Part shown: piece after piece, positions 35,541 through 57,251 of the stretch
How positions within the stretch are numbered: position 1 is the first letter of the stretch
Layout: every line of letters begins with the position of its first letter
Assembly: GCA_000004985.1 (NCBI GenBank)
Contig: GG738883.1
Direction: 5' to 3' (one strand)
From: Naegleria gruberi
Taxonomy: Eukaryota
DNA: 64,000 nucleotides
Position numbers and translations under genes: made by a program
Notes under the pieces: generated by a model
What the model was told of the DNA's origin: nothing
The model's input: only the letters and a program-made list of their open reading frames with translations
Database searches by the model: none

Positions 35541-38500
35541 ATGTCAGACCATAAGTTGAAAAAAATGTTTGTTGGTAGCCCATGTCAATACCTCCTTATT
35601 GGGGTAATTGTTTTGCATGCATGCTTGTTTGCTTGTTGCTATCAACCACAGTATGACATGTCTGTTGTGGCAGGTGGTGGATCTTCAATAGGTGATGGAT
35701 TATTAGCAACACAAGCATTGTTATCAGTACCAAGTGGTGGAATTGTTTCAAATTCTGATATTATATTCTGTGATACTAATAATCATAGAATACGTAAGAT
35801 AGATGTGAATGGTATCATGTCAACTATTGCTGGTACTGGTGTTGCAAATTATTCTGGTAAGTTTATAGACTTCACATTGTTCAACAACTTTGGTCAACTC
35901 ACATGCATGTGCAATTCAAATAGGAGATGGAGGAGCCGCAGTTAATGCACAACTAAACTCACCTCAAGGAATTGGAATACTATCAACTGGTGCCATTGTA
36001 TTTTCAGATACATTAAACCACTGTATTAGAAAGATTGAAAATGGAATTATTTCAACATTAGCAGGTAATGGATCACCAGGATTGACAGGTAAGTTTTATA
36101 TGCATACACATGATCTTCTAAAAACCTTGTAGTAGTTGGATCAGCAATCAGTGCTCAATTAAACACACCAACTGCTCTAATTGTTGCAAGTAATGACATT
36201 TATTTTGCTGAAAGTGGAAACCATCTCATTAGAAGAATTAGTTCTTCTGGCATGTTAACAATCTACATTGGAGAGTCAAGTGGAACATCTGGTAGTTCTG
36301 ATACAGGTACAGCTGGAGCATCATTCAAAATGAATACACCAATGGGAATTGTTTTCCATGCAGGAAATTTATACTTTTCAGATTCCAAGAATTATAGAAT
36401 TTGTGTAACCTCTGGTGCATTGATTTCTGTTTTCAAAGCATCATTGACAAGTGAACCACTTGGATTAGCTAGTTATAATGGTAATCTGTATATTGCCATG
36501 AAGGGAAACAAGGTTTTACAAGCAAAGAATTCGAATACAATCATTGATTTTGCTGGAAGTGGAACGAGTGGATATTCAGGAGATGGAGGATTGGGTACAT
36601 CTGCTTTATTGAATGGTCCATCTGCTTTGGCTTTTGATTCGAGTGGAAATTTGCTCATTTCAGATTCTTTCAATAATAGAATTAGAAAAGTTGCAAATGG
36701 AACTATTTCAACTTTGGCTGGAAATAGCAATAGAAATTTTGGAAATGGTGTTTTGGGAACATTGGCTTCATTTTCCTCTCCAAATAGTGTTTATTATACA
36801 GGAAATGATGATTCAGCAGGTGGCATTTTGATTTCTGACACAAATAATCATGTTTTAAGAAGATTGAAAGATGGATACATTTATAATGTGATTGGAAATG
36901 TTGCAATTCCTGGAAACAACAATGGAAATGGAGTGAATGTCAATGATGCAACAGTGAATTCACCTCCATTTGTCATGAAGAGATTTGGTGATTTAATTTA
37001 CTTTTTAGATAATAATGGATGTGCATTGAGAAGAATTGAATCGAATAATGTTTTAACACTTGTGGTAGGAAGTTGCAATACTGCCAATCAAGATTATTTC
37101 CTTTCCAAATCATTTGACATTTCCAATGATGGAATTATTTATATTGCTGATTATTACAATAATAGAATTGCCAAGTTTGAGATTAATAATTCCACTTTGA
37201 CAACCCTTGTTGGACGTTCCTTAAAAGGATTCTTAGATGGAATTGGGTCGAATGCCTTACTCAACTATCCTGAAAGTCTTATTATTGGACCTGATAATAT
37301 GATTTACTTTTCAGATCGTGATAATAATGCAATTAGATCTGTGTCCACAAGTTCTGCTTTGGTTACAACTCTGGCCGGTGACAGATTTAATGGATTTCTT
37401 GGAGATGGTGGTCCAGCTAAATCATCAAGACTTGATTCACCAGGACCTATTCAGTTGACATTAGGTGGTGAGATAATTTTCATGGACAGAGGAAATCAAA
37501 GAATTAGAAAGATTACAAAATATGGAAATATTTTTACTATTTATGGAAATGGATCAACAAGTGTTTTTAAAGATGCTAATGGTTTAACACTTGGTGGAAG
37601 TGGTGAAATTTACATTGCAGATAGTGGAAACAATCTCATCAAAATGTTATCTGCTGCCAAATGTTCAAATGGAACTTTTTACAATTCTTCATCATTTGAA
37701 TGTCAATGTACAGCTGGTTTCTATGGAGAGAATTGCTTGGAATATGATTGCTCAGGAATCAATTGGAGAAACTCGTCCGTTTGTTCAGGAAGAGGTTCAT
37801 GTATTGCGAAAGAAAAGTGTTCTTGCTCTGCCAATTTCACAGGAAGTAATTGTGAAGAATACTATTGTTATGGAGTTAATTCAGTGAATAGCAGTGTTTG
37901 TTCATCCAATGGTCAATGCACAGCTCCAGATAATTGTACCTGTTCATTTGGAACATTTGGGTTGAATTGTGAAAATGCTTATTGTCAAGGAATTGTCTCT
38001 TGGAATGAAACTGTTTGTAATTCGAGAGGAAAATGCATTGGCTACAACAAGTGTACATGCAATAATGGATTTTATGGCAATAATTGTGAATTTTACAATT
38101 GTTTCGGAGTTAAAAACACTGACAGCTCAATATGTTCAGGAAATGGTATTTGTTCCAAAATTGATAATTGCACTTGTTTTGATGGATATTTTGGAAATAA
38201 CTGCTCTGATTTCAATTGTGTTGGAGAGCAGTATATTGGAAAGAACTTGTGTTTGAATAATGGCTCATGCACTGGTCCAGGTGATTGTAAATGTTTGCCT
38301 GAATGGGGTGGCAACATTTGTCAACATGTCAAATGTTTTAACAAGACAGCTGTCGATTCAAATGTTTGTTCATCACATGGTCAATGTTTGTCTTTTAATA
38401 ATTGTTCATGTGATCCAAGATGGATTGGCAGTGATTGTGGCGTGACCACTTGTTTTGGTCAATTATCAAATGATTCGAATAGAGTTTGTTCATCATATGG

Positions 38501-41500
38501 TCAATGTTTAAATCCAGATCAATGCTCTTGTAATAATGGATACAGAGGTGATGAATGTGAATATAGAGTGTGTTATGATTTAATTCACACAGATCCAAAT
38601 GTTTGCTCCTCACATGGTCAATGTGAATCACCAAATAATTGTAAATGTGAAAATGGTTTTGTTGGGGAGAATTGTCAATATCACCAAGTTTATTTAGACA
38701 TTTCAAATGCATTGATTTATTCATATTTTGATTCACTTTTAAATATTTCAACAACAATTGATGGAGGTGATCAAGTATTGTTGAGTAGTGAATGTCAAGA
38801 TTTATTCGAAAGTTCAGAATTGATCAAATTGGGAGAAGCTGATTTGATATCCTGTTATTGGACACCAAATTATTTCAAAATCAAATTGGGATATAATCAC
38901 ATGATTGAACATTTATCCACATTGAAACTGAATTCAAATTTCAATATTTCACTTCAAGTCAATTCAAATTCTTCTTTAATTTTACTCAATCAGCGAACAT
39001 TTTCCTCTTCAATGGATACTTTACTTTTATACATTCCATCCAATCAAGATTTTATCATCAAATCCAGCAGTGATGATTATTATCATACATTTAAGAAAGT
39101 TTCAAAAAGTTGGACATGTGAAAACTGTCCTCAGCCACTTGTCAATTATTTAACAAATTATGAAAATAAGAGTATGATTTTAATACCAACTTCATTGCTG
39201 AATAGCATTCCATTAGATTCTTCATATTCTAAAATTCTTTCACTTAAATATTCATCCATGAATTCAATTCAAAAATCATTGACATCAAGCGACAAGACAA
39301 GAATTGAATCTAATAAGAATTTACCTCCCTCTTTCACATGGCATGGGGATAATGTAAAGGATACACAATTTAAATGTGTTGGACATAATTGTATTATTGA
39401 AAGTTCATTGAATTCAATGAATAGTTCACTTTCATTTACATTCTCTGGATTTTTCAGTTTATTGAATTCACTCTTTTCACAAAAACAAATGTTTAGATTG
39501 GTAAATGTTTATAATAATGAATTGGTGGACAGTGAATATTCATCCAATGCACAAATAGTTGGATTTCAATTGAAAACCTATGTTTCCACTTCACTTTCTT
39601 ATTATTTCTCATATTCAACATTTGATAGATTGGATCATGTTTTGACAAATGTGAATAGAACTCTATCTCTTGATGATTCTAAATTTACAATTTCAATATT
39701 CAATCAAGATCCTTTCATTTCAAGTTTCACATTACCTGAATATTTCACATTCAATTACCAATTTTATCAAATTAATTCAATTGACAATAATTTAAGTAGT
39801 AGTGAAAAAACATTGAATATAGATGTTGAAAAATTGAATTTATCAGAAGGAATGTATTTAGTGAACTTGACACTAACAGTTTCCAAGTCATATGTCACAA
39901 TTCCATATTATTATTTTGGATTTATTCATTTTTATGCTCAATCAAATGTTCCAAAATTAACAATTGATCAATTACCTGCTATTTATCCTTCCAAAAAGGA
40001 TTTACATTTGAAAGTATTGATTCAATCATCAAGTGCAATTCAAAATTATAAATGGAAATTAAAAGAAGGTTTAGTGAAAGAAAGGAAAATAATTGGACAA
40101 TTTTTGGAAAGTTCACAATTTACTCAACTCACGTCTAATACATACAAGAGTGAAATTATAATTAATAGTCAATATTTATTGGAAGGTGAATTTATTTCAT
40201 TTGATTTTTCAGTTTCAAATATGAATGGAATGTCAAATGTTTCATTATCAACTAGAATTGATGAATCTCCAAGATTTTCATGTGAATATTTCAATTTAAA
40301 GAATGAATTTACAAATTATGCATTTGATTCACTTCTTTCCATTTCATGTTTCAATTTACCTGAAGAACCAATTTCAAGTTTTAATTTTGAATTTCATTCC
40401 ATTTATGGAAAGAGATTAAATATCATTTCCAATACATTGAAAAAGAATATCATTACAAGAATACCAATGTACTCATTTGAAGAAGGTAAAATCAATCTTG
40501 TTGTAAAATTAGTGAATAGATATGGCTCAGTTTCACAAATCTCAAAAACTATTTCAGTTTTACCTCCATTAACTATTTACAATTCACAAAATTCAATTCT
40601 ATCAAGATTTAATTATTTTAAACAATCTTTTTATAATTTGAAGTTGAATGAGCCATTGAGAATTGATACTGCTCATTCAATTTATTCCTTAATGAGTATT
40701 CTCATTCAGAACGAAACCATTTCGAATATAAAAGGACAATTAGTGAATGAATTAACAATGGATCAATTATCAACATTTAATTCATTGTTGAAAGATATGA
40801 TTAATCAATTGAAAAGTATTCAATCGTTGACATATAAGGTTGATGAAAAGATAATTCAATTGACACTTCCAATAATTTCACAAATTTATTCGATTCTGGA
40901 TAATTTATCATTGGATGAAAGTTGGATTTCAGATATTTCAAGTTGGCTTGATTGGATTTATTCTGGAATGTCAAATGCCAAACAATATTATTCAGAAATA
41001 TTATTAGAAACTGTACTTTCCACTGAACATTATTCAGAATTGAAAATTATTCAAAATATACTTTCAAAAAGATATTCTAATAGATTGGATAAACAAGAAT
41101 TAATTTCAAAATATAGAGCTCAATATTTAATGTTGACTAAACTGAACGAATCATCAGATGATTCATCTTTTGAAATTTATCAAATAGATATTGCTTCTCA
41201 ATTAAATGGCAAGTCAATTACAACAAACATCAATCAAGATATTCAAATTCAAGCCATACTTCCATCAGATTTAACAAGTCAAGTGTCAAATATTGAAGAT
41301 AATTCACAATTATTTTACTCTTCATCATTAATTTCAAATGACAAGACATTGAATAATATTTTAACAAATAGACCTATTTTGGAATTATCAATTTTTTCAA
41401 AAGATGGTTCATTGACAAGTGTGAATAATTTACAGAATCCAATTCAATTGAAATTCAAAAATTTATTTACAGATTACAAAATCTATACTAATTTATCATG

Positions 41501-42801
41501 TGTTTATTTTGATGCTTCATCAAATGGATGGTCAACCAATGGAATTACAGCCAAATCAACGATAATCAAACAAGAAAATGGAAAATTGTATTTTGAAATG
41601 GAATGTAACACAACTCACTTGTCTTTATTCTCAGTTCAAGAATATAATTTCATTTCAATTCCAGTTGTTATCAACTCAAGTCAACCTAGAAATGAAATAG
41701 ATACAAATTTAGGATTAATTCTTGGATTGGCACTTGGCATTTCTATTCCAGTTGTGTTAATGATAGTGTTTGTTATCATTATCATTGTGTTATCTGTATT
41801 TGTGTGGAAATTAAAAACTAAGAGAACACGATATGATATTGAAATGACAGGAACTGATTTTCCTGATTCGAGTATGTTCCTGACACCACTTGTTAGCGTT
41901 TCAGGAAGTTCAAATGAAAGTTTCAATCCACTTTCAAGATATTTAGATCTAGTTAGAATTGGTCAAGGAGCATTTGGCTCAGTTTTCAAAGCAATGGATT
42001 CAAAAACAAATACAATGAAAGCAATCAAAGTGATGAGATATCAAACCAATGAAGAATTGAATGGATTTATGAAAGAAGGAACTCAATTAATGAATGTCAG
42101 TCATCCAAATATTTTGAAAGTGAATGATTTCTTTATTAGTCAAGATAATTTATTGTGTATTGATATGGATTTTTATGAAAAGGGTGATTTGGTTCAATTG
42201 ACCAATGAATCTTTCATTTGCTCAGAGAAGATGTTGCTTCAAATTATTTATCAAATGTTAAATGCATTGAATTATATTCACAACTCAATGAAACTCATTC
42301 ACAGAGATATCAAACCATCAAATATTTTCATCAAATCAATCGATAATGATAATATTCAAATTGTAATTGCTGATTTTGGATTGGCAAGGGCAGATCAAGG
42401 TTCTGCTCACAAATCATATGCTGGAACTCCTTTATTTATGGTATGTTATTTATCAATACTTTGGCATGTCAATTCTAACATATATTACTGTTAACTTGGA
42501 GGAATTATAGTCACCTGAACTTGGATATGGCGGAAAGTATTATTTCAATACAGATATTTACAGTTTAGGAGTCACTCTTTATCAAATCATGACCAAAGAT
42601 ACTCAAACTTCAATTAGTCAACTATTAATCACAAAAGATAAACTTGAAGTGAATACAATTCTCAAACAAAAATTTGATGAGCGAAGAATTTACTCATCTG
42701 AAGTTATTGATTTGGTCATTTCAATGTTAGAAAAGGATTTGACAATCAGACCACAAGCAACAACTCTCCTTAGCAATCATCTTTTCAAATCATTCCAATA
42801 A
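35541..42801 (+). CDS. giant single-pass receptor Ser/Thr kinase with NHL-repeat + EGF-like (tenascin-type) ectodomain, >=5 exons (35541..35856, 35924..36088, 36133..42440, 42511..42801)
   Basis: Signal-anchor N-terminus. About 10 NHL repeats are split by a 67-nt and a 44-nt GTAAGT intron. About 14 Cys-rich EGF-like repeats (C.C..G..G..C) follow, then a ~1000-aa S/N-rich extracellular region and TM segment GLILGLALGISIPVVLMIVFVIIIIVLSVFVW. The kinase has IGQGAFGSVFKA, HRDIKPSNIFI and ADFGLAR. A 70-nt GTATGT...TATAG intron splits GTPLFM|SPE. Confidence 0.85.
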
Positions 42802-45572: not shown

Positions 45573-47666
45573 TTATCTAAGAATGTTTGTTGTTGAAGAG
45601 CCTAGTAAATTTTCCAAGAAGGTTAATCTTGTTTTGATTTTGTGTAGGAGAGCATCTGCATTCTTTGGCTTTTCTTTTTCAATTTGAGCTTGTAATCCTC
45701 TATAGTTTTCTGTCACGTTGATTATTAAATCCTTAGTTACAATTGAGTTTTCCAATGCAAAGTCCTTGGCATTAATGAGTAAAAGTTTCATGTCCAATGA
45801 TTCAGGATGTTCTGATTCCAATTCTTGTAGATAAGGAATGGCATCTGAAGCAGATTTTGTGACAGTTCGTCCAGCAAGGTAAAATGATGTGCTATTAACA
45901 ATGTATGGATCAAATTCACACAAATGTCTTATGGAGAATAGAATATTGAAGGTTTCGGCAGTGGCTGCATGATTTCTCAAGTAAAAATTAGCTCTCATTC
46001 TTAAGAAAATACTTTGAGTAATAAGGTTACTCGTAATTCTAGGAGGACAATTTGTGAAAATTTCCTGAAGAGAATTCAACTGCTCAATAATTGCTGCGGC
46101 TGATTCTTGAACCTTAGGAAGAGTGTCTCTGGATTTAGAGTAGTAATCAATGTGCAAACTATGAATTGAAGCAAGTCGTAATGCAATAGGCATGAATGAA
46201 TAAGAGCTGGTTTTCCTCACGGAATATCTCTTCAACATCTTTTCCAATAGATTGCACAAGTTAATGCATTGAGTTAAACTATCTTCAAGTTTTGTTTTCA
46301 CTTGATTTTTCGTAACATCCTTAGTTAATAAGAACTTAACTCTCTTTTCTAGTGTAATAATATTAAAATATGTAATGTATGGATTGTTAGGATCAGTTTT
46401 TTGTAATTCAAAAAGTTGAGATTTGGTAATCTCGATTGTTTTTTCGTTTTTTCCATCAGAGTTCAAAATTATTTGACATAAATTCATACAAGATTTCAAA
46501 TTAAGAGGAATTCCTGTTCCAATATCATCAAAGACATTGTTATTCAGATGAGCTTTTTGGAATAAGGCCTGAGCATTATTAAGCATTTTGAGAAGTACGG
46601 TTTTTTCAGTATTATTATCGGTGGTCATAAGTGGTTCATTGAGCATAATAGTGTAGCAATACCCAGAGAAAAGTTCCTTGCTCAGTGTTATATTAGGATG
46701 AACATTTTCATTAACAACATTTGTGAAAAATAATAGAAATGCCTTTTGAATTTCCAAATCAATAATTGATGATTTGGCGATCAAATCAGAATAATCACTG
46801 GTCAATATGGAATGAACTGCTTTTTTCAAATCCATTTGTTGAATTTCAGTACTTTTTTCCGGCATTCCAAATCGTTCTGGATTAATCTTTTGAATAATTT
46901 CATTTAACAATTTGCTAACTTCAATTTCTTTCAATTTCTCAATCCATTCGCTCCATTCCTTAGTTTTAAAAGCCCATCCCTGAAGTAAAGACTGAACAAA
47001 CACAAGAGAAAAATTCAACATTTCATCACACAGTACATTATTTCCAGGAGCCATAATTCTATTCAACAAGAAAACTCCAGCTTTTTCCTGCTCATTACTA
47101 GCCAATAATTCCCTCACATATTCCAAATCCTTTCCCAACTCACGTCTCGACTTTTCCAATTGATTTTTATCCACAGCTTCCTGTTGCAATTTCCTACTCT
47201 TTTTCAATTGTTCTTCAATTTGCAATTTCATTTGTTGAATATTAAGCAAATTTTCCTCATGACTAATTTCCTTCCTAACAAAAACTCCACTCGTACGAAG
47301 ATTAGATTTGGATTTGATAGAAGTACTAGTAGTAGTGGCATTGCTTGTATTAGATGTAATTGATGAAGTATTAGTAGTAATATTAGGCTTGCTTAAATTA
47401 TTATTTGGAGAAGAGTTTCTATGGGATTTGAATGTTTTTAAATCATCAGCGAATTTTAATTTCAATTCCGATGAGTGATAATGTCTCATTCCATCACCAT
47501 CACCAACATTAAATATTAAACTAGTATTATTACATTTAATATTATTATTACTACTATGCTGATGAATATTATTGCTATAATTTAATATATAATTCCGAAA
47601 ATATGTTGCTGATTTCCTTGGTAAACGATGTGAAAGACTTCTCGAGGAGGAAATGGAGAGTTTCAT
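45573..47666 (-). CDS. hypothetical large alpha-helical protein (697 aa)
   Basis: Long ATG ORF with an N-terminal S/N/T-rich region, then a helical region. No family recognised. Confidence 0.65.
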   Translation of the reverse strand: MKLSISSSRSLSHRLPRKSATYFRNYILNYSNNIHQHSSNNNIKCNNTSLIFNVGDGDGMRHYHSSELKLKFADDLKTFKSHRNSSPNNNLSKPNITTNTSSITSNTSNATTTSTSIKSKSNLRTSGVFVRKEISHEENLLNIQQMKLQIEEQLKKSRKLQQEAVDKNQLEKSRRELGKDLEYVRELLASNEQEKAGVFLLNRIMAPGNNVLCDEMLNFSLVFVQSLLQGWAFKTKEWSEWIEKLKEIEVSKLLNEIIQKINPERFGMPEKSTEIQQMDLKKAVHSILTSDYSDLIAKSSIIDLEIQKAFLLFFTNVVNENVHPNITLSKELFSGYCYTIMLNEPLMTTDNNTEKTVLLKMLNNAQALFQKAHLNNNVFDDIGTGIPLNLKSCMNLCQIILNSDGKNEKTIEITKSQLFELQKTDPNNPYITYFNIITLEKRVKFLLTKDVTKNQVKTKLEDSLTQCINLCNLLEKMLKRYSVRKTSSYSFMPIALRLASIHSLHIDYYSKSRDTLPKVQESAAAIIEQLNSLQEIFTNCPPRITSNLITQSIFLRMRANFYLRNHAATAETFNILFSIRHLCEFDPYIVNSTSFYLAGRTVTKSASDAIPYLQELESEHPESLDMKLLLINAKDFALENSIVTKDLIINVTENYRGLQAQIEKEKPKNADALLHKIKTRLTFLENLLGSSTTNILR

Positions 47667-48006
47667 CTCTAGATTTTTTTTTTTAATTTCAACAAATTTA
47701 AATTTCTTTAATATTTAAAATTATTTTAATATTTAATATTAATGGTTGTTGTATAGAACAGAGAATGTTGGACAAGGTCATGGATAAATGCAATTCTTAA
47801 ATCACCAAATTTAATACTGAATTACCATATTTATACAGTGATTGTCTTTGCATGGATTTGATTTGTCAGTCTCACCTAATAACCAAAGGCAATTACAAGA
47901 CATTAAAGTTGTTACAATTAAAAACATCATAAAAAAAGTATCTACAAGGCATCACAAGCCATACAATCATTTCGAATACTTTTCTAAAAGAATAATTTAC
48001 TTTCGG

Positions 48007-49677
48007 ATGGGAAATACACATCATCAGGGACTTGAAGAGGGTCATCATCACCGAAAATCACAACGTTCCTCTGATAATTCACCACTTTCCACTCATCAAA
48101 ATCCTTTCCATCATCGACACAGCACCAAAAGCAATCATTCGAATTATGAACAACAATTAGATACTGCCATAACACAATTAACCAATAATAATGGAACTCT
48201 GGATGAAAATAATCATCATCATTACCAACCTAATCATCAATTGGATGGTGAAATTCTTGTTGGTCTTCCAAATATAACTGCCTTTTCAGGAAAAGATGCA
48301 CTAGTGGTGGAAAATTCACTTGAAAAATTCAAAATCCTATTGTGTGGAAGTGGATCAAGTGGAAAAACCACATTTCTCAAAAGTATTGAATTGTACAAGA
48401 AGGGAGCATTTATGGAATCAGCTTACAAGAAGGGAATTATCTATTTTAATATTATTAGAGATTTGGGATTGATGTGTAAACAGTATTTGAGTGTGGCTAC
48501 AGAGTTTTTGAATTTCATTTCAGGTTTGAATGAGGAAAATTATGGAAAATCATTGAGTGATTTGAATGAAATGTTTCCTAGAGAATTGCCACGTGAAATT
48601 ACAGATTCGATGGATAGATTGATTAAGGTTGCGAGCTCAAAGAATTTTCTACATAGTTCAGCAAGTAGATCATCTTCAAAACAGTATAATCCTACATTTG
48701 ATACTTATTTTAATGAGCAAACATTTGAGGATATTGAATCATTGTGGAAATATAGACCTTTCAACTTATTTGCTCATTTTCACTTGACACATTCAAGTAT
48801 TCCAGAATTTTTGACACCTGTTTTAACTAAAATGGACACAATTCCAAACATTACGTTTGGAGAGAATGAATCCACTAATTATTCCAAGTTTATGCTCTCA
48901 TTGAGGAATAGTGATTTTGATGATTTAATTTACTTTTTAGATCGTAGACTCAATGAATTATATCCTCCTTATCAGTATGACCCCAATTGGGTTGATCTCT
49001 TACATAGAAGACAAAAAACAGTTGGATTTTATCATTTAAACTATGTGGAAGATGCCATTTCAGAGGAGGGCATGAGAGAAACGAGAAATTACATTTTTAT
49101 TGATACAGCTGGTCAAAGGTCAGAAAGAAAGAAGTGGTCAATCTGTTATCCAAACACATTTACACTCTTTTACTTTGTTTCATTGGCTGATATTAATTTA
49201 ACATTGTATGAATCGAATGTGGAGAATAGATTGTTGGATTCTTTGCATTTGTTTGAGCATGTTTGTCAGGAACCAGATCTCATTCAAACTCCAATTGTTC
49301 TCTTCTTTACAAAAACAGATATTCTCAAGAGGAAGATTAAAAATGGATTGAAACCTATTGAGCTATTTGAAAAGATTGAAAAGCTCTACTCACAACGATA
49401 TGAAGCAGCAACCATTGTTGACATGCCACCATCATCTGCAACTAATGATACTGAGAAGAATTCCGAACTTTCTCTCAATATTTCGTCTGGAAATCAAGCG
49501 AATCAAGTCGATGCTGAATTCAACCAATTCATTGAATATATTTCAGCCAAATTCAAGGAAAAACTGTTACCAACACAAACAATCACCATTTACACTCTCG
49601 ACTGCACTGAACCTACTCAATTCAAAACAACATTCAAGGAAATCATGCAAATGTTAAATAAAACTATCAAGGACTAA
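48007..49677 (+). CDS. divergent heterotrimeric G-protein alpha-subunit-like protein
   Basis: First ATG at 48007 (MGNTHHQ...; the track ORF started at TTG 47842). G1 LCGSGSSGKTTFLKS. Switch I RRQKTVGF. G3 DTAGQRSERKKW instead of DVGGQRSERKKW. G4 FTKTD instead of NKKD. G5-like LDCTEP. The helical-domain insert is large. Confidence 0.8.
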   Translation: MGNTHHQGLEEGHHHRKSQRSSDNSPLSTHQNPFHHRHSTKSNHSNYEQQLDTAITQLTNNNGTLDENNHHHYQPNHQLDGEILVGLPNITAFSGKDALVVENSLEKFKILLCGSGSSGKTTFLKSIELYKKGAFMESAYKKGIIYFNIIRDLGLMCKQYLSVATEFLNFISGLNEENYGKSLSDLNEMFPRELPREITDSMDRLIKVASSKNFLHSSASRSSSKQYNPTFDTYFNEQTFEDIESLWKYRPFNLFAHFHLTHSSIPEFLTPVLTKMDTIPNITFGENESTNYSKFMLSLRNSDFDDLIYFLDRRLNELYPPYQYDPNWVDLLHRRQKTVGFYHLNYVEDAISEEGMRETRNYIFIDTAGQRSERKKWSICYPNTFTLFYFVSLADINLTLYESNVENRLLDSLHLFEHVCQEPDLIQTPIVLFFTKTDILKRKIKNGLKPIELFEKIEKLYSQRYEAATIVDMPPSSATNDTEKNSELSLNISSGNQANQVDAEFNQFIEYISAKFKEKLLPTQTITIYTLDCTEPTQFKTTFKEIMQMLNKTIKD

Positions 49678-49678
49678 T

Positions 49679-50160
49679 TTATTCGTCATCATCTTCATCA
49701 CTTTCTTCCTCTTCAGAATCGGAGAAAGCTACTCTATTAGGATTTCCTTGAAACATTTCATCTTCCTCTTCATCATCAATATCCAAAACTTGTTGTTTAT
49801 CTTCTGTTGTTGTATTGTTATCATTATCAAATTCAGCTGGCCATTTTCCTTGTTTCTTCAATTCCTTTACTTGTTGAGCAACCAAAATATGATCAACAAA
49901 TCCTTTAATTTTACCCTTGTTCTGTTCGGAAAGATCAGTGCTAATAATCACAAAATCACCCTTCTTTACCCAAAGTAATTTATTAAACTTGGTCGGAAGG
50001 ATAACAAGTATTCTTTCTCTTGTTCCTGGATATTCTACTTCAATTTGGTTGGTTCCTCTTGTTGCGACAATTCTCACGATAGATTGACTATCAGTAATTT
50101 CTGGTGCTTCATCAAATAACGTATTTTGAATATTCTTTCTTACTCTACTCATCTTTTCAT
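49679..50160 (-). CDS. eif1ad: probable RNA-binding protein EIF1AD (eIF1A-like S1/OB domain)
   Basis: First ATG at 50160 (MSRVRKNIQ...). Close match to EIF1AD over its length: IVRIVATRGTNQIEVEYPGTRERILVILPTKFNKLLWVKKGDFVII...QVKELKKQGKWPAEF. Acidic tail. Confidence 0.85.
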
Positions 50161-54212: not shown

Positions 54213-54411
54213 TTTTTTCAAACTTGGAAAATTGAAAAATTGTAACAAATAAAATCAATGAAATTACATGTGTTTCATAGTGAAATACTGTTCCTGGAGT
54301 AATGCATGGAACAATTTAATACACTCTAATCCATGTAACCTTCCAACCCTTTACAACTTCCACCTATGTTCCGACTATTCCACTCAGCGAATCAAAAAAC
54401 AATCAAAAAAA

Positions 54412-55398
54412 ATGCAACCAAATCATTATGGGGGTTACCCTGCTGGTGGTCATCAACAGCAACCAATGATGATGTACGGAAATAATACTCAAAACCTTTC
54501 TTTATCATCGGGAGGTGTTACTCTTACGATGAGTGGTAATAATAATACACCAGGGATTGTTGGTGGAGTTCCAATTATGTATCAACAACAAATGATGATG
54601 AGTCCACTTCTTCCGTATAATTTGAAAGGAGAAGTTGTGATCAAGCTTCAAAATCCATTTTCAATTAAATTGTTACCAAAATCTAATACTTTGGTGATGG
54701 TTGATGGAAATATAGGTCGTGTTGTGATGAAGGATGCAACTACTGGTATTATTAAAGAAGATTTCTCAGTTACATCTGGATGTGTTAAAGGAATTGGGGT
54801 TGATCCAACAGATGATAGTTTTTATATAATTTCAGGAAAATTCTTGATAAAATATGATTATCGTGGAGTTTATCTTGGAAAATTTGCAAAGAAAATGAAT
54901 TTGAACAATCCATATGGTTGTACTGTTGATGATACTGGAAATGTCTATATCACAGATTTGAATGATTGTAAAATTGTTGTTCTCTCACGTGAAGAGCAAC
55001 TTGTAAATAAGATTGAATTTAACAAACCATACGATATAGTATTTGATAATGTGAATAAGCTCCTAATTGTGACAGATCAACAAAAGGATTGTGTTAGAAT
55101 TTTAGCAAAGAGTGGTCAAGAAATTAGAAAGATTGGAGACAAGGGTAACGCCAAAGGTCAATTCAGTTCACCAAGTGGTGTTTGTGTGGATGGAAATTCT
55201 CAAATTTTCGTAGCAGATTATGGAAATCATCGTGTACAAATGTTTGACATTAATGGAAGATTTTTAAATTCATTTGGAACAAAGGGCAATACAGATTCAC
55301 ATTTTGATTTACCAAGATCTCTATGTGTGGATATGAATGGAAATTTATATGTAGCAGAGTATGGTAATTCACGTGTACAAGTATTCAAAAAGTTGTAA
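54412..55398 (+). CDS. NHL-repeat protein with Q/M-rich N-terminus (tandem paralog 1)
   Basis: ATG at 54412. C-terminal six-bladed NHL repeats (…GQFSSPSGVCVDGNSQIFVADYGNHRVQMFD...). Collinear with the downstream gene 55758..57251. Confidence 0.75.
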   Translation: MQPNHYGGYPAGGHQQQPMMMYGNNTQNLSLSSGGVTLTMSGNNNTPGIVGGVPIMYQQQMMMSPLLPYNLKGEVVIKLQNPFSIKLLPKSNTLVMVDGNIGRVVMKDATTGIIKEDFSVTSGCVKGIGVDPTDDSFYIISGKFLIKYDYRGVYLGKFAKKMNLNNPYGCTVDDTGNVYITDLNDCKIVVLSREEQLVNKIEFNKPYDIVFDNVNKLLIVTDQQKDCVRILAKSGQEIRKIGDKGNAKGQFSSPSGVCVDGNSQIFVADYGNHRVQMFDINGRFLNSFGTKGNTDSHFDLPRSLCVDMNGNLYVAEYGNSRVQVFKKL

Positions 55399-55757: not shown

Positions 55758-55907
55758 ATGTATCAACAACAACAACCTTATTATCATCCATCACAACAAC
55801 AACGACAACAACCGAATTTACCCATCGGATCAGTATCACACCAGCAAATAACTGTACAGAATAATTTTCAACCAAACATGTATCCTCCACATCCTCAACA
55901 ACAATAT

Positions 55908-55938
<31 letters not shown>

Positions 55939-57251
55939 ATAATCCATATGGATCATCATCTGCTCCTCCATTGGTGATGAATCAACAACAGCAACCACCT
56001 ACTTATGGACAGCCTATGAATCAACAACAACAACAACCACCGATGCATCATCAACCGAATTATGGACAAGTTGTGCAACCAACAACATCGGGTGGATCGA
56101 TTACAGTTTCTACTACACAACAACATCCACATTCATTCTATTATCCATATTATTCATATCAGACAACTACTAATACTAACATTCCAATTCATGGACAACC
56201 ACAACAAGGATCAGTCCCACCACCACAACAACAACATGTACAACAACCGTATGGTCAACCACAACCACCAATGAATCCACCAAGTACTAATATTCAACCT
56301 ATGAATCCTTATGGTCAACCAATGATGACTCCACCACCTGTTGTGAATAGTTCACCATTAACTGTTGCCTCAGTCCAAACTAGTATTACATTCAGTAATA
56401 CTACTACTCCAACTCCAACACACAACAGTATTAAATATCAAATTAACCCACCTCTCCACATTGCTCCACATTATTCATTGAGAGGAGAATTGGTATTAAA
56501 AACACAACATCCATTCTGTGTGAGAGCTATGCATCATTCACCAACAATTATTATTGCTGATTCGAATACTAGCAAAATTACCTTGTTGGATAGTTCAAGT
56601 GGGATGGTAAGAGAAACCTTCGATGTTACCACAGGATGTGTTGGAGGTGTTGGAGTTGATCCAATGGATGACAGTTTTTATATTGTTTCTGGACAGAAAA
56701 TTCTAAAATATGGAGCTAATGGAGTTCATTTGGGAACTTTTGGAGAGAATTTCAATTTGAAAAAGCCATACGGTCTAACAGTCGACGATCAAGGGTTTGT
56801 CTATATCTGTGATCTTCATCAACATATTTTTGTAATGACTCGTGAAGGAATCATGGTCAGATACATCTCAGTAGAGAAGCCTTATGATATTTTCTTTGAT
56901 AAATTAAATCAAACTCTTGTAGTGACTGACCAAGATAAGGATTGTGTAAGAGTTTTAACTAAAGAAGGTCTGAAAATTAGAAAAATTGGTGGAAAGGGAA
57001 ATGCTAAAGGTCAATTCATTTCACCAAGTGGAGTTTGTGTAAATGCAGGTAGTAACATTATTGTTGCAGATTATGGAAATCATAGAGTGCAAGTATTTGA
57101 TTGTATGGGAAGATTCCTCTATTCTATGGGAAATAAGGGAAAATTAGAATCAGAATTTGATTTACCAAGATCAGTATGCACTGATATTAATGGAAATTTA
57201 TTTGTTGCTGAATATGGAAACTCTAGAGTTCAAATATTCAGGAAAATGTAA
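55758..57251 (+). CDS. NHL-repeat protein with long poly-Q/P/Y prion-like N-terminus (tandem paralog 2)
   Basis: Q-rich N-terminal ~200 aa, including a (CAA)10 tract. The NHL repeat block is about 60% identical to the upstream paralog (GKGNAKGQFISPSGVCVNAGSNIIVADYGNHRVQVFD). Confidence 0.8.
55908..55937 (+). repeat. (CAA)n trinucleotide repeat encoding poly-Q inside gene 55758..57251
   Basis: Ten perfect CAA units seen directly. Confidence 0.9.

What the first reader, a model, noticed from the sequence alone, without database searches (positions are those of the whole stretch)
48007..49677. G-alpha-like protein with non-canonical nucleotide-binding motifs (DTAGQ for DVGGQ, TKTD for NKKD)
The overall order of G1 / switch I / G3 / G4 / G5 and the QRSERKKW signature identify a heterotrimeric G-alpha fold. 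The NKxD guanine-specificity box is replaced by TKTD, and G3 is Ras-like (DTAGQ). The helical insert is very large. The start codon in the track is a TTG artefact; the likely start is MGN (Gly2, possible N-myristoylation). Together these suggest a divergent G-alpha with altered nucleotide specificity or slow exchange.
Basis: partly seen in the sequence, partly recalled or inferred. Interest (0 to 1): 0.5.

Follow-up and report, generated by a model that had tools for sequence, protein, structure and literature searches.

The report
Divergent Naegleria G-alpha subunit, already annotated
This is a real but already annotated G-protein alpha subunit gene of the amoeba Naegleria gruberi; it belongs to a small divergent subfamily found only in Naegleria and its relatives, and its unusual TKxD motif should still bind guanine nucleotides, so there is no sign of a new nucleotide specificity.

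Summary
Window 48007-49677 (+) is one uninterrupted 556-codon gene starting MGN. It matches Pfam G-alpha (E 4e-55) and its predicted structure matches solved G-alpha structures. It carries GSGSSGKTT, RRQKTVG, DTAGQRSERKKW and TKTD, and has no NKxD anywhere.

The window is Naegleria gruberi NEG-M. The protein is identical to XP_002674575.1 / D2VMZ9, already named "G-protein alpha subunit".

It belongs to a subfamily seen only in Heterolobosea: N. fowleri, N. lovaniensis, Willaertia magna and one metagenomic relative. A neighbouring eIF-1A-like gene is conserved, and selection is purifying (core dN/dS about 0.15).

TKxD is invariant across the subfamily. DTAGQ is specific to N. gruberi; the others have D(T/S)GGQ. 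The Lys and Asp of G4, the arginine finger, the Mg-binding Thr and the catalytic Gln are all kept. TKxD is the normal G4 of the guanine-specific SRP GTPases and is within the dynamin consensus. Altered nucleotide specificity is therefore not supported.

The P-loop Glu is lost. The G5 Ala is replaced; replacing this Ala speeds GDP release in Gs-alpha and lowers nucleotide affinity in Gi-alpha-1. The N-terminal helix is reduced and the C-terminal tip is truncated. Together these point, by inference only, to fast spontaneous exchange rather than slow exchange. Interest is low to moderate.

The parts
48007..49677 (+). Complete single-exon coding sequence, 556 codons plus TAA. It is N. gruberi XP_002674575.1 / EFC41831.1 / UniProt D2VMZ9, named 'G-protein alpha subunit'.
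   Evidence: ORF. Exact match to the RefSeq protein. Pfam G-alpha E 4e-55. Foldseek top hits are all G-alpha, TM-score normalised to the target 0.75-0.83.
47842..48006 (+). In-frame upstream extension from a TTG. It is not part of the gene, only an artefact of bacterial start-codon rules.
   Evidence: No ATG in this stretch. The RefSeq model and all orthologues start at MGN.
48007..48288 (+). N-terminal region, residues 1-94. Met-Gly-Asn start (Gly2 is a possible N-myristoylation site), followed by a His/Asn/Ser-rich segment predicted to be disordered.
   Evidence: pLDDT about 30 over residues 1-97. 14 His and 12 Asn in 94 residues. M1-G2-N3 invariant in 5 of 5 orthologues while the rest is variable. 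dN/dS is higher here than in the core.
48289..48318 (+). Short remnant of the N-terminal helix, residues 95-104, just before strand beta-1. In canonical G-alpha this helix is about 25 residues long and contacts G-beta.
   Evidence: DSSP on the AF2 model gives helix 95-104 only. The Pfam match starts at profile position 19.
48346..48372 (+). G1 / P-loop GSGSSGKTT, residues 114-122. The conserved Glu (Gi-alpha-1 E43) is Ser117, and the Mg-binding Ser47 is Thr121.
   Evidence: Alignment to Gi-alpha-1. E43 is S or A in all 5 orthologues, against E or D in 107 of 125 other G-alpha.
48403..48987 (+). Enlarged all-helical domain, about residues 133-327. It is about 83 residues longer than in Gi-alpha-1 and contains conserved inserts (for example RSSSKxYNPTFD and YPPYQY) and a variable loop at 262-300.
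   Evidence: AF2 helices and pLDDT. Alignment with Gi-alpha-1. Spacing of 215 against 132 residues. Invariant columns inside the inserts.
49000..49029 (+). Switch I / G2, LHRRQKTVGF, residues 332-341. The arginine finger R335 and the Mg-binding T338 are conserved.
   Evidence: R178 maps to R335 and T181 to T338, invariant in all 5 orthologues.
49045..49080 (+). Insertion of about 9 residues in the beta2-beta3 hairpin, within residues 347-358. It is specific to the subfamily.
   Evidence: Alignment with Gi-alpha-1.
49102..49152 (+). G3 and switch II, DTAGQRSERKKWSICYP, residues 366-382. D366, G369, catalytic Q370 and W377 are kept. A368 replaces the first Gly (Gi-alpha-1 G202) only in N. gruberi. 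The distal half of switch II (SICYP against IHCFE) is divergent.
   Evidence: Only 2 of 125 other G-alpha have Ala at the G202 position.
49309..49320 (+). G4 TKTD, residues 435-438, aligned to N269-K270-K271-D272 of Gi-alpha-1. Thr, Lys and Asp are invariant in the subfamily.
   Evidence: Asn is present in 124 of 125 other G-alpha. There is no NKxD elsewhere in the protein.
49342..49497 (+). Insert between helices alpha-G and alpha-4, residues 446-497: one extra helix followed by a variable disordered loop.
   Evidence: AF2 gives helix 450-469 and pLDDT below 50 over 472-496. Alignment. D438 to G5 is 93 residues, against 52 in Gi-alpha-1.
49597..49614 (+). G5 equivalent LDCTEP, residues 531-536, aligned to TCATDT of Gi-alpha-1. 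The Ala (A326) is Cys533, and is T, S, A or I in the orthologues.
   Evidence: Ala is present in 110 of 125 other G-alpha.
49612..49674 (+). C-terminal helix alpha-5, residues 536-556. It ends 5 residues short of Gi-alpha-1 in N. gruberi, and none of the orthologues aligns to L353/F354. The hydrophobic L348 and L353 receptor-contact positions are missing.

Best explanation
**What it is.** A functional heterotrimeric-type G-protein alpha subunit gene of Naegleria gruberi, already annotated as such. It belongs to a divergent paralogue group seen only in Heterolobosea (Naegleria and Willaertia).

**What the sequence shows.**
- It has the two-domain G-alpha architecture: a Ras-like GTPase domain with an all-helical domain inserted between the P-loop helix and switch I.
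- The canonical hydrolysis machinery is complete: P-loop Lys, in-cis arginine finger R335, Mg-binding T338, DxxGQ with Q370, and switch II ending in W377.
- The guanine-reading Lys and Asp of G4 are kept.

**What follows from knowledge of other GTPases.** It should bind GDP and GTP and cycle like other G-alpha subunits. The Asn-to-Thr change makes G4 a TKxD box, as in SRP GTPases and dynamins. It does not change base specificity.

**Inference, about 40% likely.** The conserved changes sit on the base and lid side of the pocket: P-loop Glu to Ser, G4 Asn to Thr, G5 Cys-Ala to Asp/Asn plus a bulkier residue. They would weaken nucleotide retention. The protein would then exchange GDP for GTP spontaneously ('self-activating', as shown for N. 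fowleri G-alpha-5 and G-alpha-7 and for plant GPA1) and be controlled mainly at the hydrolysis step.

**Inference on partners.** The reduced N-terminal helix, the divergent distal switch II and the short hydrophilic C-terminal tip argue against classical coupling to a receptor and G-beta-gamma. A probably myristoylated Gly2 on a disordered linker of about 95 residues would tether it to membranes.

**Species-specific change.** The Gly-to-Ala in G3 (DTAGQ) is the same substitution as the engineered Gi-alpha-1 G202A mutant. From my memory of Lambert et al. 2010, which I could not retrieve, that mutant hydrolyses GTP faster.
For: **Family and fold.** Pfam G-alpha E 4.1e-55. PDB sequence hits are all G-alpha. 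The AF2 model has pTM 0.71 and a confident core over residues 95-556. The top 50 Foldseek hits are all G-alpha chains, aligned over about 450 columns with target-normalised TM-score 0.73-0.83 apart from one at 0.69.

**Identity.** The sequence is identical to XP_002674575.1 'G-protein alpha subunit [Naegleria gruberi]', and three neighbouring ORFs are also exact N. gruberi proteins.

**Subfamily.** Orthologues share 45-49% identity: N. lovaniensis, N. fowleri, Willaertia magna and one metagenomic sequence. A profile search of 1.84 billion representatives gives three subfamily representatives at 750-917 bits, and the next best protein scores 165 bits. The convergent eIF-1A-like neighbour is conserved in N. 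fowleri and N. lovaniensis and in the window.

**The gene is functional.** Two N. gruberi-like strains differ by 12 synonymous and 2 non-synonymous codons, and both non-synonymous changes are in the disordered N-terminus. The N. fowleri / N. lovaniensis core dN/dS is 0.15.

**Residue mapping.** R178, T181, D200, G203, Q204, K210, W211, K270 and D272 are all conserved. E43 becomes S or A, N269 becomes T, and C325-A326 become D/N plus C/T/S/A/I in the five orthologues.

**Literature.**
- TKxD is the SRP GTPase motif, in which the Asp gives guanine specificity (PMC1904258). N/TKxD is the dynamin consensus.
- Substituting the G5 Ala drastically accelerates GDP release in Gs-alpha and reduces GDP affinity in Gi-alpha-1 (PMC4266920; PMC5022103).
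- The P-loop acidic residue pairs with the arginine finger and is implicated in control of exchange. Naegleria has both self-activating and conventional G-alpha subunits, together with 28 seven-transmembrane RGS proteins (PMC9283941).
- Gi-alpha-1 G202A is a solved, folded, GDP-bound protein, PDB 3UMS (PMC5022103).
Against: - No biochemistry exists for any member of this subfamily. The N. fowleri orthologue, at 542 aa, does not match the lengths of the seven subunits characterised by Bosch et al. and would be among the uncloned ones.
- The kinetic prediction extrapolates from point mutants in other backgrounds. Compensating changes could restore tight binding.
- One orthologue (P0004) keeps Ala at the G5 position, so that change is not a fixed subfamily trait.
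- Rho-family and SRP GTPases with Thr in G4 bind nucleotide well, so the Asn-to-Thr change alone says little about kinetics.
- The AF2 model rests on only 15 sequences. The apparent absence of an N-terminal helix could be under-prediction, because about 20 residues before beta-1 are conserved.
- G-beta-gamma binding was not tested. Most proximal switch II contact residues (K376, W377) are conserved.
Confidence: 0.7

Rival explanations
1. One reading: replacing NKxD with TKTD changes base specificity, so the protein would use ATP, XTP or another nucleotide instead of guanine nucleotides.
For: Asn is nearly universal at this position in G-alpha, present in 124 of 125 other sequences surveyed. 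The G5 box is also non-canonical.
Against: - The residue that specifies guanine is the Asp of the motif, and D438 and K436 are invariant.
- TKxD is the native G4 of the SRP/FtsY GTPases and is within the dynamin consensus, both guanine-nucleotide users.
- Known specificity switches change the Asp. In EHD proteins a Met after G4 blocks the guanine amino group. Neither feature is present here.
- TKxD also occurs in an otherwise canonical G-alpha of Thecamoeba.
Confidence: 0.06
2. It is a conventional slow-exchanging G-alpha that waits for a receptor or other exchange factor. It forms a normal heterotrimer, and the substitutions are kinetically neutral.
For: - All catalytic and phosphate-binding residues are intact.
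- Naegleria has conventional slow exchangers as well as fast ones. N. fowleri G-alpha-6, which has a helical-domain insertion, showed negligible spontaneous exchange.
- A larger helical domain could act as a tighter lid over the nucleotide.
Against: - The C-terminal helix ends 5 residues short of Gi-alpha-1 in N. gruberi, and no orthologue aligns to L353/F354. The L348 and L353 hydrophobic positions that enter the receptor are missing.
- Only about 10 residues of N-terminal helix are predicted.
- Substituting the G5 Ala and losing the P-loop Glu favour faster release in studied systems.
Confidence: 0.2
3. It is a non-cycling pseudo-GTPase or scaffold that has lost normal nucleotide cycling. 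This would resemble the way plant extra-large G proteins are described, which I state from memory.
For: Long N-terminal extension, several inserts, a degenerate G5 and a divergent distal switch II.
Against: - The arginine finger, Mg-binding Thr, catalytic Gln, P-loop Lys and G4 Lys and Asp are invariant across five taxa whose synonymous sites are saturated (N. gruberi against the other Naegleria species).
- Core dN/dS is about 0.15.
- The N-terminal extension is low-complexity with no Cys-rich domain. Residues 1-113 contain a single Cys, and Pfam finds no extra domain.
Confidence: 0.07
4. It is a pseudogene or a gene-model artefact.
For: None beyond the TTG start shown by the bacterial-code ORF list.
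Against: - An intact 556-codon ORF that is identical to the RefSeq model.
- Syntenic orthologues exist.
- Purifying selection is evident.
Confidence: 0.01

Closest known systems
Canonical heterotrimeric G-alpha subunits (Pfam PF00503; for example human Gi-alpha-1, Gq-alpha, G-alpha-13)
   Same: Two-domain fold. G1-G5 occur in the same order. The in-cis arginine finger, catalytic Gln and the QRSERKKW switch II are present, and Gly2 is at the N-terminus.
   Different: - G4 is TKxD rather than NKxD.
- The P-loop Glu is replaced by Ser.
- G5 is LDCT rather than TCAT.
- The helical domain is about 83 residues larger, with further inserts in the beta2-beta3 hairpin and the alpha-G/alpha-4 loop.
- A disordered N-terminus of about 95 residues stands where a full N-terminal helix would be.
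- The C-terminus ends 5 residues short of Gi-alpha-1 and is hydrophilic.
Self-activating G-alpha subunits: N. fowleri G-alpha-5 and G-alpha-7 (PDB 6NE6), Arabidopsis GPA1, Trichomonas G-alpha (PMC9283941)
   Same: Same genus-level signalling context: many G-alpha paralogues, seven-transmembrane RGS proteins and few recognisable receptors. The predicted weakening of nucleotide retention would give the same behaviour.
   Different: Those proteins keep canonical NKxD and 'highly conserved nucleotide-interacting residues'. Their fast exchange is measured, whereas here it is only inferred. They are about 350-390 residues long and lack the long inserts.
N. fowleri G-alpha-6 (PMC9283941)
   Same: A Naegleria G-alpha with a large insertion in the helical domain, N-terminal to switch I. 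Deleting that insertion abolished activation.
   Different: It is a different paralogue of 383 aa, and its insert is described as low-complexity. The inserts here include strongly conserved sequence blocks. It is not reported to have TKxD.
TKxD-type G4 boxes of SRP54/FtsY and dynamin-superfamily GTPases
   Same: The same four-residue G4 solution (Thr-Lys-x-Asp), with the Asp reading the guanine.
   Different: They are unrelated GTPase families with different activation mechanisms (dimer-dependent). The resemblance is convergent at a single residue.
Engineered and disease mutants Gi-alpha-1 A326S, Gs-alpha A366S and Gi-alpha-1 G202A (PDB 1BH2, 3UMS)
   Same: Substitutions at the same two positions: the G5 Ala and the first Gly of DVGGQ.
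   Different: Those are single changes in a canonical background. Here the G5 residue is Cys rather than Ser, and it comes with many other changes that have co-evolved.
Plant extra-large G proteins (XLG)
   Same: A G-alpha-like domain with non-canonical nucleotide-binding motifs and a long N-terminal extension. This rests on my own knowledge and was not tested here.
   Different: There is no Cys-rich N-terminal domain, and the catalytic residues are retained. It is not a member of this group.

Membership tests
Heterotrimeric G-protein alpha subunit (PF00503) | Profile-HMM match above the curated threshold | tested here: met
   187.7 bits against a cut-off of 48.8, E 4.1e-55, one stretch covering profile positions 19-332 of 333.
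Heterotrimeric G-protein alpha subunit (PF00503) | Ras-like domain with an all-helical domain inserted between helix alpha-1 and switch I | tested here: met
   The AF2 model has helices throughout residues 138-313, between G1 and switch I. Foldseek aligns about 450 columns to full-length G-alpha structures, with target-normalised TM-score 0.75-0.83 for the best hits.
Heterotrimeric G-protein alpha subunit (PF00503) | In-cis arginine finger and Mg-binding Thr in switch I (RxxTxGI) | tested here: met
   R335 and T338 align to R178 and T181 and are invariant in the subfamily.
Heterotrimeric G-protein alpha subunit (PF00503) | G3 and switch II, DxxGQRSERKKW, with the catalytic Gln | tested here: met
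   DTAGQRSERKKW at residues 366-377. D, the second G, Q, K and W are conserved. The first Gly is Ala in N. gruberi only.
Heterotrimeric G-protein alpha subunit (PF00503) | G4 NKxD guanine-recognition box | tested here: inconclusive
   Lys and Asp are present and Asn is replaced by Thr (TKTD, residues 435-438). This does not match the literal motif, but it falls within the N/TKxD consensus used by other guanine-specific GTPases.
Heterotrimeric G-protein alpha subunit (PF00503) | G5 TCA(T) box | tested here: not met
   LDCT aligns to TCAT, and Ala326 corresponds to Cys533. Only the position is conserved, not the sequence. This box is loosely conserved across GTPases in general.
Heterotrimeric G-protein alpha subunit (PF00503) | N-terminal helix and switch II surface that bind G-beta-gamma | tested here: inconclusive
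   Only residues 95-104 are predicted helical before beta-1. Proximal switch II is conserved and the distal part is divergent: IHCFE becomes SICYP. Complex formation could not be tested with these tools.
Heterotrimeric G-protein alpha subunit (PF00503) | C-terminal alpha-5 tip with hydrophobic receptor-contact residues (Gi-alpha-1 L348, L353) | tested here: not met
   The helix ends at the position aligned to K349 in N. gruberi. L348 corresponds to K, R or I, and no orthologue aligns to L353 or F354.
Heterotrimeric G-protein alpha subunit (PF00503) | N-terminal lipid modification (Gly2 myristoylation and/or Cys palmitoylation) | not testable with these tools
   MGN is invariant in 5 of 5 orthologues. 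There is no Cys at position 3. Residue 6 is His here and Ser or Ala in three orthologues. The sequence is compatible with myristoylation but does not prove it.
Heterotrimeric G-protein alpha subunit (PF00503) | Binds and hydrolyses guanine nucleotides | not testable with these tools
   This needs recombinant protein assays.
Self-activating (fast-exchange) G-alpha class | Spontaneous nucleotide exchange faster than hydrolysis | not testable with these tools
   Inferred only, from E43 to S, N269 to T and A326 to C, compared with mutant data.
Plant-type extra-large G proteins (XLG) | Cys-rich N-terminal domain fused to a G-alpha-like domain that lacks key catalytic residues | tested here: not met
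   Residues 1-113 contain one Cys and are predicted to be disordered. Pfam finds no further domain apart from the weak Arf cross-match usual for G-alpha. The catalytic residues are present.

The most novel reading that the evidence does not exclude
This heterolobosean-only subfamily is a distinct functional class of G-alpha. It would be a membrane-tethered switch, with myristoyl-Gly2 on a disordered linker of about 95 residues. It would load GTP on its own because its base-side contacts are weakened (TKxD, no P-loop Glu, non-Ala G5). It would not use a classical receptor or G-beta-gamma, because the N-terminal helix is reduced and the alpha-5 tip is truncated. It would be controlled only by GTPase-accelerating proteins or by partners that bind its enlarged, conserved helical-domain inserts.
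Probability: 0.3. Interest if true: 0.45.

Novelty: already known. Interest (0 to 1): 0.25.

Why it matters
The gene itself is a catalogued G-alpha paralogue, and lineage-specific diversification of G-alpha in N. gruberi has already been reported (PMC3971589). The finding therefore adds little at the level of 'what is it'.

Its modest value is comparative. It is a natural experiment: the near-universal G4 Asn, the P-loop Glu and the G5 Ala are all replaced together and kept under purifying selection, while the catalytic machinery stays intact.

Naegleria is the one characterised lineage in which fast-exchanging and slow-exchanging G-alpha subunits coexist (PMC9283941). Measuring this subfamily's kinetics would help show which pocket residues set the exchange rate in nature. 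It would also show whether a G-alpha can work without the usual receptor and G-beta-gamma contact elements. The N. fowleri orthologue gives it slight relevance to a pathogen.

Tried and rejected
- **Mis-registration of G4.** Rejected. There is no NKxD anywhere in the protein, and a 131-sequence alignment puts TKTD on N269-D272.
- **A non-G-alpha P-loop family.** Rejected. The only other Pfam hit above threshold is the usual weak Arf cross-match (23.7 bits), and every structural neighbour is a G-alpha.
- **Unknown organism or prokaryotic context.** Rejected. Exact matches to four N. gruberi NEG-M proteins show this is a eukaryotic chromosome. The neighbouring genes are unrelated and give no functional clue.
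- **DTAGQ as a subfamily trait.** Rejected. It is present only in N. gruberi.
- **Mapping the N. fowleri orthologue (FDP41_012887) to the G-alpha-1 to -13 numbering of Bosch et al.** Not possible, because that paper uses AmoebaDB accessions and gives no sequences in the text held. Only the protein lengths suggest it is one of the uncloned subunits.
- **Retrieving Lambert et al. 2010 on Gi-alpha-1 G202A kinetics.** Not held. The 'fast hydrolysis' property rests on my memory. Only the existence of the G202A structure 3UMS is documented here.
- **Geometry of T435 and C533 in the model.** I did not attempt to read model coordinates, and none appeared among the files listed for scripts, so hydrogen-bond geometry was not measured.
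- **Second structure prediction, further protein-database searches and collection scans.** Not run, because they would not change the verdict.
Full report
**1. What is in the sequence**

The ORF list shows 47842-49677 (+) opening at a TTG. That start exists only because the tool applies bacterial start rules. The in-frame upstream stretch has no ATG, and the first ATG is at 48007.

From there the frame runs 556 codons to a TAA at 49675-49677, beginning MGNTHH.

| Motif | Sequence | Residues |
|---|---|---|
| G1 | GSGSSGKT(T) | 114-122 |
| Switch I | RQKTVG | 335-340 |
| G3 | DTAGQ | 366-370 |
| Switch II | QRSERKKW | 370-377 |
| G4 | TKTD | 435-438 |

No NKxD occurs anywhere in the protein.

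**2. Organism and annotation**

The window is AT-rich (about 33% G+C) and densely packed with long ORFs on both strands.

An exact-sequence look-up shows the 556-aa protein is XP_002674575.1 / EFC41831.1 / UniProt D2VMZ9, 'G-protein alpha subunit [Naegleria gruberi strain NEG-M]'. Three other window ORFs are also exact N. gruberi proteins from the same 371-kb scaffold.

A near-identical copy lies on a 3.8-kb metagenome contig (ENA ERZ929261) with the same neighbour.

**3. Family and fold**

- Pfam G-alpha scores 187.7 bits, E 4.1e-55, against a cut-off of 48.8. The only other hit above its threshold is the usual weak Arf cross-match.
- All solved relatives found by sequence are G-alpha chains, E about 1e-21.
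- An AlphaFold2 model from a 15-sequence alignment has pTM 0.71. The core over residues 95-556 is confident. The model is disordered over 1-97, 266-286 and 472-496.
- The top 50 Foldseek hits against the PDB are all G-alpha chains (AtGPA1, Gq, G13, Gi, Gs, transducin). They align over about 450 columns with target-normalised TM-score 0.73-0.83, apart from one at 0.69.
- Both the Ras-like domain and the helical domain are present.

**4. Orthologues and distribution**

Homologues at 45-49% identity come from N. lovaniensis, N. fowleri (FDP41_012887), Willaertia magna and one unnamed metagenomic sequence. Everything else is at or below 28% over comparable coverage.

A profile of the five sequences was searched against 1.84 billion representatives. 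It gives three subfamily members at 750-917 bits, and the next best protein scores 165 bits. This is a sharply separated group seen only in Heterolobosea.

In N. fowleri and N. lovaniensis the gene is followed by a convergent eIF-1A-like gene, as in the window. This confirms orthology.

Selection is purifying:
- The two N. gruberi-like strains differ at 12 synonymous and 2 non-synonymous codons. Both non-synonymous changes are in the disordered N-terminus.
- The N. fowleri / N. lovaniensis dN/dS is 0.15 in the core and 0.25 in the N-terminal region.

**5. Residue-by-residue comparison**

I aligned the five orthologues, 125 other G-alpha sequences from the searches, and human Gi-alpha-1. The Gi-alpha-1 sequence was checked as identical to PDB chains.

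Conserved positions: G40, G42, G45, K46, T48, R178 (R335), T181 (T338), G183, D200, G203 (G369), Q204 (Q370), R205, E207, K210, W211 (W377), K270 (K436) and D272 (D438).

Positions changed across the subfamily:

| Gi-alpha-1 position | State in the subfamily | State in 125 other G-alpha |
|---|---|---|
| E43 | S or A | E or D in 107 |
| N269 | T | N in 124 |
| T324-C325-A326 | L, then D/N, then C/T/S/A/I | Ala at the A326 position in 110 |
| Distal switch II (I212-E216) | divergent | - |
| C-terminus | ends at or shortly after K349/D350; none aligns to L353/F354; no L348 or L353 equivalents | - |

One change is specific to N. gruberi: G202 becomes A368. The other four orthologues have GGQ.

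Inserts relative to Gi-alpha-1:
- About 83 residues in the helical domain (215 against 132 residues between the G1 Lys and the arginine finger). These include blocks invariant across the subfamily, such as RSS..YN.T.D and YPPYQY.
- About 9 residues in the beta2-beta3 hairpin.
- About 40 residues between alpha-G and alpha-4.

Before beta-1 only residues 95-104 are predicted helical. Everything upstream is His/Asn/Ser-rich and disordered.

**6. What the substitutions mean**

The evidence does not support it.
- The specificity determinant of the box is the Asp, and it is retained together with the Lys.
- T-K-x-D is the conserved motif IV of SRP GTPases. [quoted passage not shown]
- N/TKxD is the consensus of the dynamin superfamily (PMC5084822).
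- TKxD also turns up sporadically in other G-alpha sequences. One is an otherwise canonical 340-aa protein of the amoebozoan Thecamoeba quadrilineata, and another is a metagenomic 429-aa protein.

*G5 and P-loop.* The combination of changes on the base side of the pocket is more telling for kinetics.
- Replacing the G5 Ala 'drastically' accelerates GDP release in Gs-alpha (A366S). In Gi-alpha-1 (A326S) it displaces the base and lowers GDP affinity (PMC4266920; PMC5022103).
- The P-loop acidic residue pairs with the arginine finger and is implicated in control of exchange. P-loop variation tunes the cycling of Naegleria G-alpha subunits (PMC9283941).
- Fast, spontaneous exchange is therefore the more likely direction, not slow exchange. 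This is an inference from mutants in other backgrounds and is not shown.

*G3.* The N. gruberi-specific Ala in DTAGQ is the same substitution as Gi-alpha-1 G202A. That mutant folds and binds GDP (PDB 3UMS; PMC5022103). From my memory of Lambert et al. 2010 (PNAS 107:7066) it is a fast-hydrolysis mutant, but the paper could not be retrieved.

**7. Signalling context**

Bosch et al. 2022 (PMC9283941) report the following for N. fowleri:
- It encodes 13 G-alpha, 2 G-beta and 1 G-gamma subunits, one candidate receptor and 28 seven-transmembrane RGS proteins.
- G-alpha-5 and G-alpha-7 are self-activating, while G-alpha-1, -2, -3 and -6 are conventional.
- Seven subunits were characterised, all of 343-394 residues.

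The 542-residue orthologue of the present gene would be among the uncloned ones. I could not map the accessions.

The reduced N-terminal helix, the divergent distal switch II and the short hydrophilic alpha-5 tip suggest that the subfamily does not use the classical receptor and G-beta-gamma interfaces. The AF2 model rests on a shallow alignment, and complex formation was not testable.

The invariant Met-Gly-Asn start is compatible with N-myristoylation. Arf proteins, which are myristoylated, also start MGN; I state this from memory. Residue 6 is His here rather than the preferred Ser, Thr or Ala.

**8. Verdict**

The family, the start codon, the motifs and the large helical insert are right. 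Altered specificity is not supported, and slow exchange is the less likely direction.
- The object is an already annotated G-alpha paralogue. Lineage-specific G-alpha diversification in N. gruberi is documented (PMC3971589).
- I did not find a description of the coherent, conserved set of pocket and interface changes that defines this heterolobosean subfamily. That set is a reasonable target for the kinetic experiments listed under next steps.
- Interest is low to moderate.

Noticed in passing
window 49675-49681 (G-alpha stop at 49675-49677; eIF-1A-like gene on the minus strand ending at 49679): The G-alpha gene and a convergent eIF-1A-like (S1-fold, PF01176) gene end with their stop codons one base apart, so their 3' untranslated regions must overlap. 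The gene pair is conserved in N. fowleri and N. lovaniensis, but there the gap is about 200 bases.
   Followed up: partly
window 36252-42494 (+): A 2080-aa ORF combining NHL repeats, many teneurin-type EGF repeats and a C-terminal protein kinase domain. This looks like a very large receptor-kinase-like protein.
   Followed up: no
window 54268-55398 (+) and 55758-57251 (+): Two adjacent genes encode NHL-repeat beta-propeller proteins. They are probably a tandem duplication and are related to the N-terminal part of the 2080-aa kinase.
   Followed up: no
L001 (ENA ERZ929261, metagenome contig k127_353660, 3776 bases): An environmental metagenome holds a near-identical N. gruberi-like copy of this gene and its eIF-1A neighbour. 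It differs at 14 of 556 codons. Outside the gene the ungapped identity to the window drops, which indicates indels in the intergenic DNA.
   Followed up: partly
P0091 and cluster members P0168-P0172 (JGI and Logan metagenomes): A 429-aa metagenomic G-alpha has TKLD in G4, a GTGDGGKS P-loop, a long beta2-beta3 insertion and a degenerate G5. Some of its features parallel the Naegleria subfamily, but it scores only 116 bits to the subfamily profile. Its source organism is unknown.
   Followed up: partly
P0016 (654 aa) and P0018 (670 aa) from the representative search: The best-scoring proteins outside the subfamily contain two complete G-alpha domains in tandem in one polypeptide, with a GQQKYRKQW switch II. 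They are either real double-G-alpha proteins or fused gene models.
   Followed up: no
P0004 (ENA and JGI metagenomes, 548 aa): This fifth subfamily member comes from an unidentified organism. Its gene call starts 24 codons upstream of the conserved MGN, which is probably an over-extended start. It is the only member that keeps Ala at the G5 position.
   Followed up: no
window 45573-47666 (-): The divergent upstream neighbour is a 697-aa 'predicted protein' (NAEGRDRAFT_50892) with only a sub-threshold match to a sorting-nexin BAR domain. The 340-base intergenic region shared with the G-alpha gene is very AT-rich and presumably holds both promoters.
   Followed up: no
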